From positions 64,001-128,000 of the IMG/VR virus record IMGVR_UViG_3300020123_000589: 64,000 nt of DNA. The stretch is one strand, 5' to 3'. A program made the position numbers and the translations under genes. Below, piece after piece: positions 5,153 through 49,084 of this stretch. The DNA is from a virus. Positions within the stretch are counted from its first letter, which is position 1. Each line of letters begins with the position of its first letter. Under the pieces are notes generated by a model that saw only the letters and a list, made by a program, of their open reading frames with translations, searched no databases and was not told the origin of the DNA.

Positions 5153-6121
5153 ATGTCAGAACAAGTTACCAAAACCGCTTCTCCTGATGACATTTATGCC
5201 GCAGGGCTTAGTGCCGCTCAGGTTGAAGAAAAGCTAACTCGTTTGATGAACAGCCCAGGCGGATTGCAGAAGATTGCTCAGCAAATGTTGAGCCCTCTAA
5301 AGCGCGAACTTCTATATGAAGGTCGTATTCGCCAGTTGTTCCAGACGTACAAACTCGCTCTAGGCGAGGAAGCCGTGTTTGACGCAGACTTAGACGTTCC
5401 AGCAGCATCCATTTCCGTTCATGGTTTGCCACAGGAACTACAGGTCGAAGCAGATCGTATCCGCGTCGAAACTGGCCCCCTAGCAACCCGTCCCTTGATC
5501 CGATGGAACGAATCCAACTTCCGAAAGTACGATGTTCTTAATCGTACCCAAGAACGCGCAAAAGCTTCCATTATGCTTCAAGAAGACACAAAAGGTTTTC
5601 AGCTCATTGACTTTGCTGCTGGTCTAACAAATCAGACCCCAGTAAATTCACTATTTGGAACCTCTGCTGCAACCAATAACCCAACCGTGCTACCTGCGAC
5701 TGGTAAATTGGACATGCAGACACTAGTAACAGGTATCGTTACACTACGTTCAAAGTTGCTCGTAGCTTCAAAGATTTATTTGAACCCACTACGAACCGCT
5801 GATCTCATGCTCTTCAACACAACCACATCAGGAACAGGCGGAGCCGGAATTTTCGCTCCTAACTTCCAGGATATGGCATTGAAAGCAGGTCGCGTAGGTG
5901 GAATCTGGGGCGTTGATGTCCTAGAGTCCGTCGTTGTTCCTACAGCTAACACATACGTTCTAGCTCCTGCGGATTATCTTGGCGTTCTCGCCGTTCGTAC
6001 TGATATTTCCGTCGAGACAATGAAAGATGTTAACCAGATGGCCGACATTTTCGCAATCTGGGAAGATATCGGCTTCCTCATTCGCTACGCTAAATCGATA
6101 GTAAAAATCGTAGTTTCTTAA
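5153..6121 (+). CDS. major capsid protein (HK97 fold); unspliced reading. Exon 1 is 5153-6091
   Basis: 322 aa, strong RBS, codon bias typical of high expression, GRVGGIWGVDVLES and terminal WEDIGFLIR motifs, position in head module. Confidence 0.85.
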   Translation: MSEQVTKTASPDDIYAAGLSAAQVEEKLTRLMNSPGGLQKIAQQMLSPLKRELLYEGRIRQLFQTYKLALGEEAVFDADLDVPAASISVHGLPQELQVEADRIRVETGPLATRPLIRWNESNFRKYDVLNRTQERAKASIMLQEDTKGFQLIDFAAGLTNQTPVNSLFGTSAATNNPTVLPATGKLDMQTLVTGIVTLRSKLLVASKIYLNPLRTADLMLFNTTTSGTGGAGIFAPNFQDMALKAGRVGGIWGVDVLESVVVPTANTYVLAPADYLGVLAVRTDISVETMKDVNQMADIFAIWEDIGFLIRYAKSIVKIVVS

Positions 6122-6452: not shown

Positions 6453-7232
6453 ATGAAGCGAAAATGCTTAGGTTGTTCAATTGAGTTTGAAGTTACCTCC
6501 AAACAATTAGATAAAAGATTTTGTACTCAAAGATGTTGGGGTAAGTATCAAACTGAACATAAATTAAATATGAAGGCTGAATTACGAAATCGCCCAACGG
6601 TAGATGAAGTAAAGAAAGCTTTTTCAGAGCAAAGAATAAAATTGGTACAATCTTTAACTTTCGTTGATTTTGCTTTATCTGGTGTTTATATTATCATTAA
6701 TATTGTTAACAATATGATTTACATAGGTTCTTCCAAAGATATTGAAGCTCGATGGAGAGAACATGTGCATAAATTTTATGGAAATAGACACGAAAATGAT
6801 AAATTGCAGAAAGCTTGGAACAAATATGGGGAAAAGGCTTTCCAATTTAAAATTTTAGAAGTTGTTCAAGAGAAAAACCTTGTAGTCCGAGAACAATATT
6901 ATTTAGATTTGTATAAACCTTACGAAAGACATATCGGCTACAATTTATATAAAACAGCTTTTAGTCCTTTAGGAAATGTTTGGACGGAAGAACAGAAAGC
7001 AAATTTAAGAGTCGTTCGACATAATCAAAAACCTAGAAAATTATATTGTAAATGGTGCAAAACGGTTTTTATTGTAAAAGGCCAAAACGCTAAATTTTGT
7101 TCACATAAATGTCGAGACAAAGCCAGATGGCAGAAAGATAAAGCTAAAAACCATTCAGGAAAACGTAAGACATTAAAAGAACTATTTGATTCTTTAACTG
7201 ATGGTGAATTAGCAACAATTTTGGAAGACTAA
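6453..7232 (+). CDS. free-standing GIY-YIG endonuclease with flanking Zn-binding motifs
   Basis: SGVYIIIN...IYIGSS...RWREH...REQYY; CxxC...FCxxxC motifs at both ends. Confidence 0.88.
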   Translation: MKRKCLGCSIEFEVTSKQLDKRFCTQRCWGKYQTEHKLNMKAELRNRPTVDEVKKAFSEQRIKLVQSLTFVDFALSGVYIIINIVNNMIYIGSSKDIEARWREHVHKFYGNRHENDKLQKAWNKYGEKAFQFKILEVVQEKNLVVREQYYLDLYKPYERHIGYNLYKTAFSPLGNVWTEEQKANLRVVRHNQKPRKLYCKWCKTVFIVKGQNAKFCSHKCRDKARWQKDKAKNHSGKRKTLKELFDSLTDGELATILED

Positions 7233-7243
7233 GTTTCTTTTGT

Positions 7244-7315
7244 GGGCTTGTAACTCAGCGGGAGAGTGCTTGCTTTGCAAGCAAGAGGTCGCAGGTTCAA
7301 ATCCTGTCAGGTCCA
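7244..7315 (+). tRNA. tRNA-Ala(UGC)
   Basis: Canonical cloverleaf, G3.U70 pair, anticodon loop TTTGCAA; CCA not encoded. Confidence 0.95.
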
Positions 7316-7327
7316 CTGAAGAAATTT

Positions 7328-7627
7328 ATGGATAACTTAAATCTGTCTATAACTATTGGTTCCTTTGTTCGACTTAAAGGCGAAAATATTCGTTACTTGG
7401 TTTTGAAAGTTAATGAACATCATGGTGTAAATCTTCTTCGTACTTATAATAGAAATCCAAAGAAATGGTATGTAAGGTTTGCACAACTAGAAGAAGTTAT
7501 TCCAGTAGAAGTTCCAAAAGTACGAATTGGTATTTTTAAAGAAGCTTTTCAGAACTTTTTTGAAAAACACGGTAATTTTTGGTTTGATAATTTAACTTAT
7601 ATTGAGATATTAGGTAAGCTGATTTAA
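7328..7627 (+). CDS. hypothetical protein with C-terminal DNL motif
   Basis: 99-aa ORF ending FDNLTYIEILGKLI. Confidence 0.65.
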   Translation: MDNLNLSITIGSFVRLKGENIRYLVLKVNEHHGVNLLRTYNRNPKKWYVRFAQLEEVIPVEVPKVRIGIFKEAFQNFFEKHGNFWFDNLTYIEILGKLI

Positions 7628-7629
7628 TT

Positions 7630-8450
7630 TACTCCCCCATAGGTTTCGACCGTGGGCGCAGGGTTTCTGAATTGGGCTCGTTCCCAATAGTAGGAGCAAC
7701 TCTTGCATTGGGGCTCTGAAATATTTCATCCCCTAACAATTTTAATAATACATCGAGGGACAACAAGATTGCATTGAGGCCAGATTATTTGATACATGGA
7801 AAATGGGTCATGCCATTGGAAGTGACGGTTCAACCTCTCTTAGCCTTTACGGGCTGACCTCTGATCCTCTTGGAATGGGCGTAAACCCGAAACCCCAAGA
7901 AGGATGATTTCGCACCGAGAGGTTTTGGTAAACCTAGTTGTCTCATAAGCAACTGATTTGTGGTTCGATTCCACACGGCGCAACCATATAAAGTGAGAAC
8001 GATAAGCGTTCTAGTAGGGAAAGCGGCCTATGCATGGGCAACTTAAATATGCTACCCTCTTCATCTAGACTGCTCACTTTTATTAATATGCAACCCGTAG
8101 CTTTTTAGCTACGCCGCAAGGATAGAGCTTAAGCTCAGTCATATCCTGCATTTTAGCCAGTTAGTCCTGCAATGTGGGGCCGATGTTCGAAGGAAGATTA
8201 GCTTGAGCATATCTAAAGGTCAAAAGCTTTTAGAAATATGTCCTGTTGTAGGCATGGCACAATTTTGAGATGATCCCGAAAGTAATTAGGGATATGGTTT
8301 ATAACGACCCAAACGTGCGTTTAGTTGGGTGAGAAGGTGGCATCTGGAACAATTGACCAGACTAAACTTCTGTAGCGTGGTTAAGGCCGACTTAACCCCA
8401 TTTGGAGCATAGCACTGCTTAAAGGAAATATTCCGCCAACTCTCAATTCA
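7630..8450 (+). ncRNA. island of putative structured non-coding RNAs around tRNA-Met
   Basis: No long ORF, elevated GC, several multi-hairpin units closed by terminal stems and separated by AT-rich linkers. Confidence 0.55.
7911..7986 (+). tRNA. tRNA with CAU anticodon (Met; initiator-like C1:A72 mismatch)
   Basis: Anticodon loop CTCATAA, T arm TGTGG-TTCGATT-CCACA, 3' ACCA encoded. Confidence 0.88.
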
Positions 8451-8453
8451 ATT

Positions 8454-8530
8454 TTGCCTAAAGCTTTGCACCTGATGAAGCCCCTCATTTTAAGAGGGAA
8501 GAATCGAGAAGGGATACCTCGATAGGCAAT
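8454..8530 (+). tRNA. degenerate tRNA-Lys(UUU)-like element
   Basis: Acceptor TTGCCTA/TAGGCAA, D stem GCTT/AAGC, anticodon arm CCCTC-ATTTTAA-GAGGG, T stem TCGAG/CTCGA with non-canonical loop. Confidence 0.55.
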
Positions 8531-8579
8531 TAATTTTACCTTCCTGTCAAAATTCTTTAAATAATCAAAAAAAAGCCTA

Positions 8580-8609
8580 TAATAAAATGTGGTATAAGTA
8601 GGGAGTATT
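8580..8609 (+). promoter_or_regulatory. repeated 30-bp upstream motif (candidate phage promoter)
   Basis: TAATAAAATGTGGTATAAGTAGGGAGTATT; near-copies at 26670-26699 (+) and 51770-51799 (-). Confidence 0.55.
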
Positions 8610-8712
8610 AGGTTTCTCCCGACGATAAAAGCAGTAAATTTGTCTAAAGGAAAGCTCCTAGAATTGGTTAGGGCCGAAAAGCCAAAATTAAACTAAGGAG
8701 ATTCAAATAATA

Positions 8713-9294
8713 ATGGTATTAATTACACGAAGTATTACAAATACAAGTTCCTCAAAAAGCTTGCCTCTATTCGTTCCAGGATATGATCCAGAAAATCCTG
8801 TGACAATTGCTCCAAGTGCTACGCTTGATTTACTATCTGTTATGTCAGGCGAAACACTTCATGCGATGCAGGGAGAGCTTGCTAAGCTTATTTCGGATGG
8901 TGCTGCAACACTTGCCGCTTCTATGGATTCTTCTAATCTATGGCCAGCCGCAATGTTGAGTTATATTGCTTCTAATGACACGCAGATTGTCTTCAATCCA
9001 ACGTCTGGTAGTGCAACACATACTGCTGGATTTACAGTGGCTATTCAAGTTGAAAATGCTGCTGGTGGAATTGACATATTTGATAGCTCTACGACAGTGG
9101 TTGTTACAGCAACACCTACTGGGGCTTCTGTGCCATTGCTAAATGGCCATGCTTCTCCAATTACGGTCACTATGACAAATGGAGTTGCACATGTTTTGGT
9201 TACAGCAAATATCGCTGATACTGAAACGTTGTCATTATCCGCACCCAGTCGTTCTTTGACTGTTTCTTCAACCGCAGTAATTACACTAAGCTAA
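8713..9294 (+). CDS. virion structural protein with Ig-like C-terminus
   Basis: Beta-rich Thr/Ser/Val C-terminus; N-terminal domain paralogous to 20317-20895. Confidence 0.55.
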   Translation: MVLITRSITNTSSSKSLPLFVPGYDPENPVTIAPSATLDLLSVMSGETLHAMQGELAKLISDGAATLAASMDSSNLWPAAMLSYIASNDTQIVFNPTSGSATHTAGFTVAIQVENAAGGIDIFDSSTTVVVTATPTGASVPLLNGHASPITVTMTNGVAHVLVTANIADTETLSLSAPSRSLTVSSTAVITLS

Positions 9295-48985: not shown

Positions 48986-49062
48986 CGGGCCTTCGTATAA
49001 CGCTGTACACGGTGCGCTTAATCCAGATAACCGAAGTGTAGGTTCAATCCCTACAGGCCCGA
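48986..49062 (+). tRNA. tRNA-like RNA with abnormal anticodon arm (possibly CCA/Trp)
   Basis: Perfect acceptor CGGGCCT/AGGCCCG, D stem, T arm GTAGG-TTCAATC-CCTAC; anticodon arm is 24 nt instead of 17. Confidence 0.65.
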
Positions 49063-49084
49063 TTAAAGATTTTGGAAGATGATA

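What the first reader, a model, noticed from the sequence alone, without database searches (positions are those of the whole stretch)
7630..8450. About 0.9 kb ORF-free island of multi-hairpin RNA units interleaved with tRNAs
Seen: several units closed by terminal stems. Examples are AAAGTGAG...CTCACTTT (~7990-8080), ATGCA...TGCAT with internal CGTAGCT/AGCTACG (~8088-8151), and a three-hairpin unit with a UUCG loop (~7632-7697). TTGAGA...TCTCAA (~8265-8446) encloses at least five hairpins. AT-rich linkers separate them as in tRNA arrays. Established: large phage ncRNAs such as GOLLD and ROOL occur next to tRNAs. I cannot assign these units to a family. Inference: an array of processed small RNAs or one large RNA with an embedded tRNA.
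Basis: partly seen in the sequence, partly recalled or inferred. Interest (0 to 1): 0.7.

Follow-up and report, generated by a model that had tools for sequence, protein, structure and literature searches.

The report
Modular small-RNA array in phage tRNA cluster
The gene-free kilobase after this soil phage's capsid gene is a string of separate folded RNA modules (one real tRNA, one tRNA look-alike, several hairpin bundles of unknown families), joined by a fixed short linker and gained or lost as whole cassettes between sister phages, much like the unexplained small RNAs in phage T4's tRNA cluster.

Summary
Comparison with about 25 related phage contigs resolves it into discrete + strand modules:
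- a two-hairpin leader, 7632-7709, which belongs to a family with covariation (45 bits against a model built without the window);
- a 168-nt unit, 7743-7910, as conserved as the capsid gene's DNA;
- an initiator-like tRNA-Met, 7911-7986;
- a 277-nt three-part insertion, 7987-8263, found nowhere else;
- a 190-nt unit, 8264-8453, shared with one sister phage (two compensatory pairs);
- a tRNA-shaped RNA, 8454-8529, with six compensatory pairs.

Modules are present or absent as whole cassettes among phages whose capsid proteins are 98-99% identical. Breakpoints fall exactly at a strand-specific CAATTT-type linker (25 copies against 3.4 expected, and 2 of the reverse complement).

No non-tRNA module matches any Rfam family, so GOLLD, ROOL, group I introns and HDV-like ribozymes are not supported.

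Best reading: a co-transcribed tRNA and small-RNA operon cut at the linkers. The closest known case is the T4 tRNA cluster, which holds tRNAs, the GIY-YIG segB gene and the stable RNAs C and D. Transcription, processing and function were not shown. The scan had noted this same stretch before.

The parts
7632..7709 (+). Two-hairpin leader ('F1' family). P1 has a CCC/GGG base and a TTCG-type loop. P2 has a GCAGGG/CTCTTGC base and carries a 30-nt extra hairpin in its loop.
   Evidence: A covariance model built from 16 relatives without the window scores it 45.4 bits, E 2.5e-19 over the whole 64 kb. In the family, 7 of 15 pairs have changes on both sides, 91% of cells are paired, and 0 of 500 shuffles reach the observed covariation score. 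A G-U pair is conserved on the + strand.
7710..7742 (+). Short hairpin (GGGG...CCCC) followed by the linker ACAATTT. It closes the first unit.
   Evidence: Sequence and fold. At this position L008 and L009 carry different hairpins that end in the same CACAATTT.
7743..7910 (+). Unit U2, a 168-nt conserved non-coding unit directly 5' of tRNA-Met. It ends in GATGATTT. Its first about 12 nt (TAATAATACAT) might be a -10-like element.
   Evidence: Found only in L008 and L009/L010. It is 95% and 92% identical to them, the same as the capsid gene's DNA (94%, 93%), while the neighbouring ORF is 67-75% identical. All 6 substitutions that fall in predicted helices keep pairing: 1 compensatory, 3 G-C to G-U on the + strand. 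In the only ORF (34 aa) the changes fall at codon positions 2, 2, 2, 2, 3, 3, 1, 1, so it is not coding.
7911..7986 (+). tRNA-Met (CAT) of initiator type, with a C1:A72 mismatch and an encoded CCA.
   Evidence: ARAGORN. Rfam tRNA 34 bits against a cut-off of 29. Against L009, the anticodon stem, the T stem and pair 7:66 differ by compensatory changes.
7987..8263 (+). Insertion A (277 nt), made of three sub-units, each closed by its own terminal helix: A1 7987-8086, A2 8087-8155, A3 8156-8263. It ends in GGCACAAT, followed by TTT.
   Evidence: Absent from L008 and L009/L010, with the breakpoint directly after the tRNA's CCA. No homologue in the related loci, IMG/VR pattern scans or its own genome. 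Support is thermodynamic only: z = -0.8, -3.7 and -2.6.
8264..8453 (+). Unit B, a multi-hairpin RNA of about 190 nt closed by TTGAGA/TCTCAA and followed by the linker TTCAATT.
   Evidence: Shared only with L008, where it directly follows tRNA-Met. The closing helix and three hairpins are conserved, with two compensatory pairs: GGTTAAG/CTTAACC against GGTTTAG/CTAAACC, and a C-G to G-C swap. The centre differs by indels that are not multiples of three.
8454..8529 (+). tRNA-shaped RNA. It is a cloverleaf with a TTT 'anticodon', a 9-nt T loop (AAGGGATAC) and no CCA.
   Evidence: All 21 pairs are standard. Six pairs differ from L009 on both sides and stay paired, 2 in the anticodon stem and 4 in the T stem. 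ARAGORN and the Rfam tRNA model do not call it.
8556..8609 (+). Promoter-like site and a repeated 30-bp motif. It marks the 3' limit of the RNA island and serves the next gene (8713-9294).
   Evidence: TTTAAA-16-TATAAT, 10 of 12. Three more copies of the motif occur in the genome. It is conserved in L008 and L009.

Best explanation
The island is the variable part of a phage tRNA and small-RNA operon on the + strand, in the same orientation as the structural genes around it. It is a string of self-contained structured RNA modules. Each module is closed by its own terminal helix and separated from the next by a short single-stranded A/U linker (CAAUUU, RAUUU, or CCA-UUU after the tRNA).

The precursor is most probably cut in these linkers by a host endonuclease of the RNase E type, with RNase P acting at the tRNA's 5' end. 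This would release an initiator-like tRNA-Met, a tRNA-shaped RNA and several small stable RNAs.

Modules are gained, lost and swapped as cassettes by recombination at the repeated linkers. The GIY-YIG homing endonuclease gene next door (6453-7232) probably helps, as T4 SegB does in the T4 tRNA region.

What the non-tRNA modules do is unknown. My best guess is that they act on or mimic tRNA-handling machinery, as decoys for, or modulators of, host tRNA-directed nucleases or processing enzymes. The reasons are that one module is a tRNA mimic and that the phage carries an Rnl1-type RNA ligase.

Shown: the modules, their cassette behaviour, selection on structure for four of the six units, the strand, and the linker motif. 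Inferred: co-transcription, cleavage at the linkers, stability, and function.
For: - Cassette behaviour. L008 (capsid protein 99% identical) lacks exactly 7987-8263. L009/L010 (98%) lack exactly 7987-8452. L008 has unit B where L009 has the tRNA-shaped unit. Three genomes give three different module strings.
- Selection on structure. F1 family: 7 of 15 pairs changed on both sides, and 0 of 500 shuffles reach the score; the window copy scores 45.4 bits. tRNA-shaped unit: 6 compensatory pairs. Unit B: 2 compensatory pairs. U2: divergence no higher than the capsid gene's DNA, and all helix substitutions keep pairing.
- A related family 3' of tRNA-Met in other relatives (F2, not in the window) has 19 of 26 pairs with compensatory changes. 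Structured non-tRNA RNAs are therefore the rule in these arrays.
- Strand. Conserved G-U pairs and G-C to G-U changes occur only on the + strand.
- Linker. In 17 arrays (10 kb) CAATTT occurs 25 times, against 3.4 +/- 1.7 expected and 2 for its reverse complement. In coding DNA the two counts are 12 and 15. All 12 distinct tRNA-Met genes are preceded by [AG]ATTT, apart from L062, where the call starts one base early inside ACAATTT, and most are followed by TTTG or ATTTG.
- T4 precedent. In T4, tRNAs, the GIY-YIG gene segB and the stable RNAs rnaC and rnaD lie side by side. RNAC and RNAD are expressed late and still have no known function (PMC9697503).
- The phage encodes an Rnl1-type RNA ligase (PF09511, 91.5 bits) and a GIY-YIG endonuclease.
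Against:
- U2 and B rest on 3 and 2 sequences.
- The arrays used for the linker statistics are related to each other, so the counts are not independent.
- The linker could be kept by recombination rather than by RNA processing.
- The host is unknown: no prophage relative was found in 185,579 genomes. Whether it has RNase E cannot be said.
- No phage RNase III or CCA-adding enzyme was found in the record, which is 79% complete.
- The whole-island fold is no better on the + strand than on the - strand (z -1.8 against -3.7).
Confidence: 0.6

Rival explanations
1. The hairpin units are cis-acting spacers, not trans-acting RNAs. They would be processing scaffolds, stabilisers or insulators that ensure correct folding and release of the tRNA(s) or protect flanking late mRNAs, and would be degraded after cleavage.
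For: The units always accompany tRNAs. In relatives, canonical tRNAs are themselves wrapped in extended leader-trailer helices followed by the same linker. Module content is highly variable between close relatives, which suits parts that are dispensable. The minimal array in L085 has only the two-hairpin leader before tRNA-Met.
Against: Spacers rarely need specific multi-hairpin folds with conserved unpaired nucleotides. U2 is as conserved as the capsid gene's DNA over 168 nt. F2 in relatives has about 25 invariant, mostly unpaired positions. The tRNA-shaped unit keeps a full cloverleaf through six compensatory changes.
Confidence: 0.2
2. One or more units next to the tRNA are self-cleaving ribozymes that make the tRNA's ends, in the manner of the HDV-like theta ribozymes found 3' of phage tRNAs (often tRNA-Met). 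Candidates are A1 or B on the 3' side and U2 on the 5' side. The linker would then be the cleavage site.
For: A1 in the window, B in L008 and F2 in other relatives begin within 0-4 nt of the CCA of tRNA-Met. Theta ribozymes sit within 5 nt of phage tRNAs, and tRNA-Met is named among the three tRNA types that together account for over 70% of the hits (PMC10879173). The units have conserved unpaired nucleotides.
Against: No match to any ribozyme family of Rfam 15 even at E <= 10, in the window or in a relative's array. The covariation-supported F2 fold is an unknotted Y shape, not the nested double pseudoknot. The units are 2-4 times longer than minimal HDV-like ribozymes. Rfam may not hold the theta sub-family, so the test is incomplete.
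Confidence: 0.08
3. The island is mostly non-functional debris: decayed tRNA genes and gene fragments piled up by homing-endonuclease-driven recombination in a tolerant intergenic site.
For: The composition is a mosaic, with indels between sister phages. A GIY-YIG gene lies next door. Insertion A has no relatives. The tRNA-Met scores poorly (34 bits) and has a weakened anticodon stem. Folding z-scores of several units are unremarkable.
Against: Compensatory changes in F1, B and the tRNA-shaped unit. U2 diverges several-fold less than expected for unconstrained DNA, given a capsid gene that is 93-94% identical in DNA but 98-99% in protein. The linker motif is strand-specific. Elevated G+C.
Confidence: 0.08
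4. The island is a single large ornate RNA of the GOLLD or ROOL kind, with an embedded tRNA.
For: About 0.9 kb is free of ORFs, it lies in a phage, and a tRNA sits inside it. GOLLD and ROOL are phage-associated and lie near tRNAs (PMC12286853).
Against: No hit to any Rfam model, GOLLD and ROOL among them, even at E <= 10. A third to a half of the stretch is missing in sister phages that keep the rest. No long-range pairing is conserved, and each unit closes on itself.
Confidence: 0.03

Closest known systems
Phage T4 tRNA gene cluster with the small stable RNAs rnaC (species 1, 139 nt) and rnaD (species 2, 119 nt) and the GIY-YIG homing endonuclease SegB
   Same: - Non-tRNA structured RNA genes lie head to tail with tRNA genes on one strand, separated by a few A/U-rich nucleotides.
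- A GIY-YIG endonuclease gene sits inside or beside the cluster.
- The phage also carries an Rnl1-type RNA ligase.
- T4 RNAC and RNAD are expressed, and their function is still unknown (PMC9697503).
- Neither T4's RNAs nor the units here are in Rfam.
   Different: - No sequence similarity to rnaC or rnaD.
- There are more units here, of several unrelated families.
- They turn over as cassettes between near-identical phages.
- A fixed CAAUUU-type linker punctuates the array.
- One unit is a full tRNA mimic.
- Expression and processing are not shown here.
GOLLD (RF01998) and ROOL (RF03087) large ornate RNAs of phages
   Same: Large ORF-free structured RNA regions in phage genomes, next to tRNAs.
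   Different: No covariance-model match. The island is modular and variable rather than one conserved fold.
Theta (minimal HDV-like) ribozymes 3' of phage tRNAs (PMC10879173)
   Same: A structured element begins within a few nucleotides of the 3' end of a phage tRNA, tRNA-Met being one of the three types that together make up most theta hits. Its possible role would be release of the tRNA's 3' end.
   Different: No HDV-family match. The units are larger, and the covariation-supported folds are not double pseudoknots. Theta ribozymes were described in gut phages, not soil phages.
Phage tRNAs and tRNA variants that evade or absorb host anticodon nucleases (PMC10264068)
   Same: A tRNA-shaped RNA with altered loops sits in a phage that also carries tRNA-repair-type enzymes.
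   Different: That work concerns functional tRNAs with changed anticodon loops. Here most units are not tRNA-shaped at all, and no nuclease target is known.

Membership tests
F1: unnamed two-hairpin RNA upstream of tRNA-Met in this phage group (defined here) | Match to a covariance model of P1 and P2 built from relatives only | tested here: met
   7632-7709 scores 45.4 bits, E 2.5e-19 over the 64-kb window; the next best hit scores 8.5 bits.
F1: unnamed two-hairpin RNA upstream of tRNA-Met in this phage group (defined here) | Position after an AATTT linker and upstream of tRNA-Met on the same strand | tested here: met
   The unit is preceded by AATTT at 7626-7630. tRNA-Met follows at 7911, as it does in most of the 16 relatives, where it was checked.
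F2: unnamed Y-shaped RNA 3' of tRNA-Met in relatives (defined here) | Match to covariance model R1 (26 pairs, 19 covarying) | tested here: not met
   With filters off, nothing in 7000-9000 scores above 10 bits. Inside unit B the only hit is a 28-nt piece (8341-8368) at 5 bits, E about 7. B shares only the position and a 'hairpin + TTAAAGG' motif with F2.
GOLLD / ROOL | Match to the Rfam covariance model | tested here: not met
   No hit at the gathering score or at E <= 10.
GOLLD / ROOL | One conserved large fold | tested here: not met
   277-nt and 466-nt blocks are absent in sister phages that keep the flanks.
T4-type small stable RNAs of a phage tRNA cluster (rnaC, rnaD) | Non-tRNA structured RNA gene adjoining tRNA genes on the same strand in a phage | tested here: met
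T4-type small stable RNAs of a phage tRNA cluster (rnaC, rnaD) | Sequence similarity to T4 rnaC or rnaD | tested here: not met
   blastn with word size 7 gives only chance 7-10-mers.
T4-type small stable RNAs of a phage tRNA cluster (rnaC, rnaD) | Accumulates as a discrete, processed, stable RNA | not testable with these tools
HDV-like (theta) ribozyme | Starts within about 5 nt of a tRNA's 3' end | tested here: met
   A1 starts 1 nt after the CCA. In L008, unit B starts directly after the CCA.
HDV-like (theta) ribozyme | Nested double-pseudoknot core with a catalytic C; match to HDV-family models | tested here: inconclusive
   No HDV-family Rfam hit at E <= 10. No theta-specific descriptor was available, and I ran no pseudoknot search.
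Group I intron | Match to Intron_gpI, and a terminal G at the 3' end of the inserted block | tested here: not met
   No hit in 7200-8800 at E <= 10. Both inserted blocks end in T (7987-8263 and 7987-8452).
tRNA (for 7911-7986) | Cloverleaf above the Rfam cut-off, with stems kept by compensatory change | tested here: met
   34 bits against a cut-off of 29, and ARAGORN. The anticodon stem, T stem and pair 7:66 covary against L009.

The most novel reading that the evidence does not exclude
Phages of this soil group run an 'RNA cassette operon'. A fixed CAAUUU punctuation mark lets any structured RNA module be dropped in and released from a common precursor. The fast-changing repertoire of modules (tRNA mimics and unknown folds such as U2, A and B) would be a counter-defence arsenal that binds or misleads host tRNA-directed nucleases and RNA-sensing immunity. 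It would be an RNA counterpart of the protein anti-defence gene islands of phages.
Probability: 0.2. Interest if true: 0.8.

Novelty: new variant of a known kind. Interest (0 to 1): 0.58.

Why it matters
Small stable RNAs of unknown function have sat in the T4 tRNA cluster for fifty years with almost no comparative material. This phage group offers that material:
- several unrelated structured-RNA families with real covariation;
- a tRNA mimic;
- a clear punctuation motif;
- natural presence and absence variants between near-identical genomes.

With these, one can ask which modules matter, how they are released, and whether they take part in the tRNA-centred arms race with the host. The module families are also unannotated RNA genes that would otherwise be read as 'intergenic'.

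Tried and rejected
- Rfam at the gathering score and at E <= 10, on the window and on 12 relatives: only tRNAs, plus an unrelated group I intron in L064.
- INPHARED phage records by blastn: only tRNA-Ala matches.
- ARAGORN with introns allowed and at a lowered threshold: no split tRNA. Two sub-threshold calls (7765-7848 on +, 7977-8073 on -) were not credible.
- Is unit B a member of the F2 family? The covariance model gave no hit.
- Is A3 a member of the F3 family? nhmmer gave no hit. Only the short motifs AGTTNAGTCCTG and GTCCT...AGGCA..CACAATTT are shared.
- More homologues of U2, A and B. Three exact-pattern scans of IMG/VR, a metagenome scan with the capsid protein, and nhmmer over all 150 loci returned only the same three genomes.
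- Host identification through prophages. A pattern scan and a capsid scan of 185,579 genomes found nothing.
- Coding potential. There is no ORF of 60 aa or more. The 34-aa ORF in U2 has the wrong codon-position pattern.
- Complementarity between U2 and the tRNA-Met body (7832-7839 with 7917-7924; 7759-7770 with 7931-7942). It is not kept in L009, so I treat it as chance.
- Phage-encoded RNase III or CCA-adding enzyme: none in the record.

Full report
**Where the window lies.** It is bases 64001-128000 of a 151-kb IMG/VR virus record. The genes around the finding are on the + strand and are late or structural: a prohead protease-like protein, the major head protein at 5153-6121, and a GIY-YIG homing endonuclease at 6453-7232. 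tRNA-Ala lies at 7244-7316, a 99-aa ORF at 7328-7627, and the next ORF at 8713-9294. Between them, 7628-8712 holds no ORF of 60 aa or more. It is the longest such gap in the whole record, and its G+C is raised by about ten points.

**The observation.**
- ARAGORN and Rfam agree on one tRNA inside the island, tRNA-Met (CAT) at 7911-7986.
- Nothing else in 7200-8800 matches any of the 4227 Rfam families, even at E <= 10.
- Folding energies are not persuasive on their own. The z-score is -1.8 for the whole + strand and -3.7 for the - strand. The sub-units range from +0.0 to -3.7.

**Relatives.** The capsid protein retrieved 59 IMG/VR loci. A metagenome scan then returned 79 loci, which for this island gave the same sequences again. 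In about 25 of them the DNA after the capsid gene is a tRNA array, with Ala-TGC, Asn-GTT, Pro-TGG and Met-CAT in varying subsets. The tRNAs are interleaved with ORF-free stretches.

**Module structure.** Three sister genomes with capsid proteins 98-99% identical give the key result.
- L008 matches the window up to the last base of the tRNA's CCA, then resumes at 8264. The window therefore carries a private block of 277 nt (A, 7987-8263).
- L009/L010 match up to the same base and resume at 8453, so they lack A and also B (8264-8453).
- L008 has B where L009 has the tRNA-shaped unit. Both have a further unit that the window lacks.
- Upstream, L009 has neither the endonuclease gene, tRNA-Ala nor the 99-aa ORF.
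- The breakpoints are exact and fall in a recurring junction: ...CA TTTG after the tRNA, ...CACAAT TTTG after A, ...TTCAAT TTTG after B.

The island is therefore a string of cassettes, not one RNA.

**The linker.**
- Across 17 distinct arrays (10 kb), CAATTT occurs 25 times. Composition predicts 3.4 +/- 1.7, and the reverse complement occurs twice. In coding DNA of the window the two orientations are equal, 12 and 15.
- All 12 distinct tRNA-Met genes are preceded by [AG]ATTT, apart from L062, where the call starts one base early inside ACAATTT. Most of them are followed by TTTG or ATTTG.
- Many hairpin units end in AGGCA[CT]AATTT: 8 occurrences, none in the reverse orientation.
- In relatives, canonical tRNAs are wrapped in leader-trailer helices followed by the same AAATTT.
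- The arrays are related to one another, so these counts overstate independence. The modules they join are nonetheless unrelated in sequence.

**Unit by unit.**
1. *7632-7709, the two-hairpin leader.* It belongs to a family I call F1. This is a 5' ATTCCCCC, hairpin P1, one unpaired nucleotide, then hairpin P2, and it stands upstream of tRNA-Met in most of the 16 distinct relatives that carry it.
   - On an alignment that excludes the window, 91% of cells pair, against 77% in shuffles.
   - Seven of 15 pairs change on both sides.
   - None of 500 shuffles, and no slid register, reaches the covariation score.
   - A G-U pair is kept in 15 of 16 sequences, which fixes the + strand.
   - The model built from that alignment finds the window copy at 45.4 bits, E 2.5e-19, with nothing else in 64 kb above 8.5 bits.
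   - The window copy carries an extra 30-nt hairpin in the P2 loop, shared with L020 and L009.
2. *7743-7910, unit U2.* It exists only in the three sister genomes.
   - Its DNA identity (95% and 92%) equals that of the capsid gene (94% and 93%), whose protein is 98-99% identical.
   - The downstream ORF is 67-75% identical, and L009's tRNA-Met is too diverged for blastn. U2 therefore changes several times more slowly than silent sites.
   - Of 20 variable columns, six lie in the predicted helices, and all six keep pairing: one A-U to G-C, three G-C to G-U, one U-G to U-A, and the partner column of the first.
   - The only ORF (34 aa) has its eight changes at codon positions 2, 2, 2, 2, 3, 3, 1, 1, which is not a coding pattern.
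3. *tRNA-Met.* It has the C1:A72 mismatch of bacterial initiator tRNAs and an encoded CCA. Relatives start CGCGG... and end ...CCGCAACCA. Against L009, the anticodon stem, the T stem and pair 7:66 differ by compensatory changes.
4. *Block A.* It has three sub-units, each closed by its own helix. I found no homologue in its own genome, in 150 loci or in IMG/VR pattern scans. Its status as RNA rests on context and on z-scores of -0.8, -3.7 and -2.6.
5. *Unit B.* In the window and in L008 it keeps the closing helix and three hairpins, with two compensatory swaps, around a centre that differs by indels. It occupies the place of the F2 family but is not a member by covariance model.
6. *8454-8529, the tRNA-shaped unit.* It folds as a cloverleaf in which all 21 pairs are standard. 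Six pairs differ from L009 on both sides. The 9-nt T loop and the loop around TTT are kept.

**F2, a family in relatives.** F2 lies 3' of tRNA-Met in 12 distinct relatives. It has 19 of 26 pairs with compensatory changes and about 25 invariant, mostly unpaired positions. It shows that structured non-tRNA RNAs are a regular feature of these arrays.

**What the island is not.**
- GOLLD or ROOL: no model match, and the block structure argues against one fold.
- A group I intron: no match, and both inserted blocks end in T rather than G.
- Known self-cleaving ribozymes: no match in the window or in a relative's array. A theta-specific descriptor was not available, so that rival stays open at low odds (PMC10879173).
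- Coding DNA or decayed genes: contradicted by the covariation and by the indel pattern.

**Closest known system.** The T4 tRNA region holds eight tRNAs, the GIY-YIG gene segB, and the stable RNAs rnaD and rnaC. These two abut tRNA-Arg and are separated by a few A/U-rich bases.
- RNAC and RNAD are expressed late, and their function is still unknown (PMC9697503).
- Rfam has no model for them either, so the blank Rfam result here carries little weight against this comparison.
- There is no sequence similarity.
- Like T4, this phage encodes an Rnl1-type RNA ligase.
- No RNase III or CCA-adding enzyme was found in the record, which is 79% complete.

**Mechanism proposed.** Co-transcription with the late genes, or from a -10-like element at the start of U2, is inferred. 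Endonucleolytic cuts in the linkers, plus RNase P at the tRNA, are inferred from the motif and from the T4 and E. coli precedents. Release of a tRNA, a tRNA mimic and several small RNAs follows from that and is likewise inferred. Cassette exchange by recombination at the repeated linkers is shown as a pattern, but its mechanism is inferred. The neighbouring homing endonuclease probably promotes it. A tRNA-centred function for the orphan units is a guess, based on the mimic, on the ligase, and on work showing that phage tRNAs answer host anticodon nucleases (PMC10264068).

**Limits.** There are no expression data and no host. U2 and B rest on three and two sequences, and A on one. A large catalogue of candidate structured RNAs from IMG/VR exists (PMC10690425) and may already list F1 or F2. 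I could not check that.

Noticed in passing
L036:8667-8771, L020:7580-7690 and 10 other loci (not in the window): Family 'F2', a Y-shaped RNA of about 105 nt directly 3' of tRNA-Met in relatives. 19 of 26 pairs have compensatory changes. About 25 positions are invariant and mostly unpaired (GAACC, GGUGAC..GG, CUUAAAGGUAU). It has no Rfam match. It is a good candidate for a new ribozyme or ligand- or protein-binding RNA.
   Followed up: partly
L027:9634-9723, L040:9041-9131, L062:8547-8634, L017:4311-4401, L064:9043-9129: Family 'F3', a two-hairpin unit of about 90 nt that ends in GCACGAATTT. It recurs in relatives' arrays and was found by nhmmer only. Its structure was not tested.
   Followed up: partly
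window 6453-7232: A free-standing GIY-YIG homing endonuclease gene lies immediately upstream of tRNA-Ala. It is absent from L009/L010 together with tRNA-Ala and the 99-aa ORF. The placement is the same as segB inside the T4 tRNA cluster.
   Followed up: partly
window 48967-49083: Between tRNA-Asp and tRNA-Thr lies a tRNA-like sequence (GGGCC...GGCCC acceptor, GTAGG TTCAATC CCTAC T arm) that ARAGORN and Rfam do not call.
   Followed up: no
L005:2389-2480: A 92-nt tRNA (Rfam 38 bits) at the tRNA-Ala position with about 20 extra nucleotides in the anticodon-arm region. This could be an odd tRNA or a small insertion.
   Followed up: no
window 8577-8609; G000:C1:33144-33173, 2856-2880 and 115770-115799 (- strand): A repeated motif of about 30 bp (CTATAATAAAATGTGGTATA...) in front of genes, probably a phage-specific promoter class. 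It is conserved in L008 and L009.
   Followed up: partly
G000:C1:11354-11929 (outside the window): A T4 Rnl1-type RNA ligase domain (PF09511, 91.5 bits) in a 376-aa open frame.
   Followed up: partly
L064:4387-4708: A group I intron (Rfam 58.9 bits) upstream of the capsid gene region of a 180-kb relative.
   Followed up: no
L009:6988-7010: A G+C-rich hairpin followed by TT sits directly after the capsid gene's stop, where the window has the intron, endonuclease and tRNA-Ala insert. It looks like a terminator.
   Followed up: no
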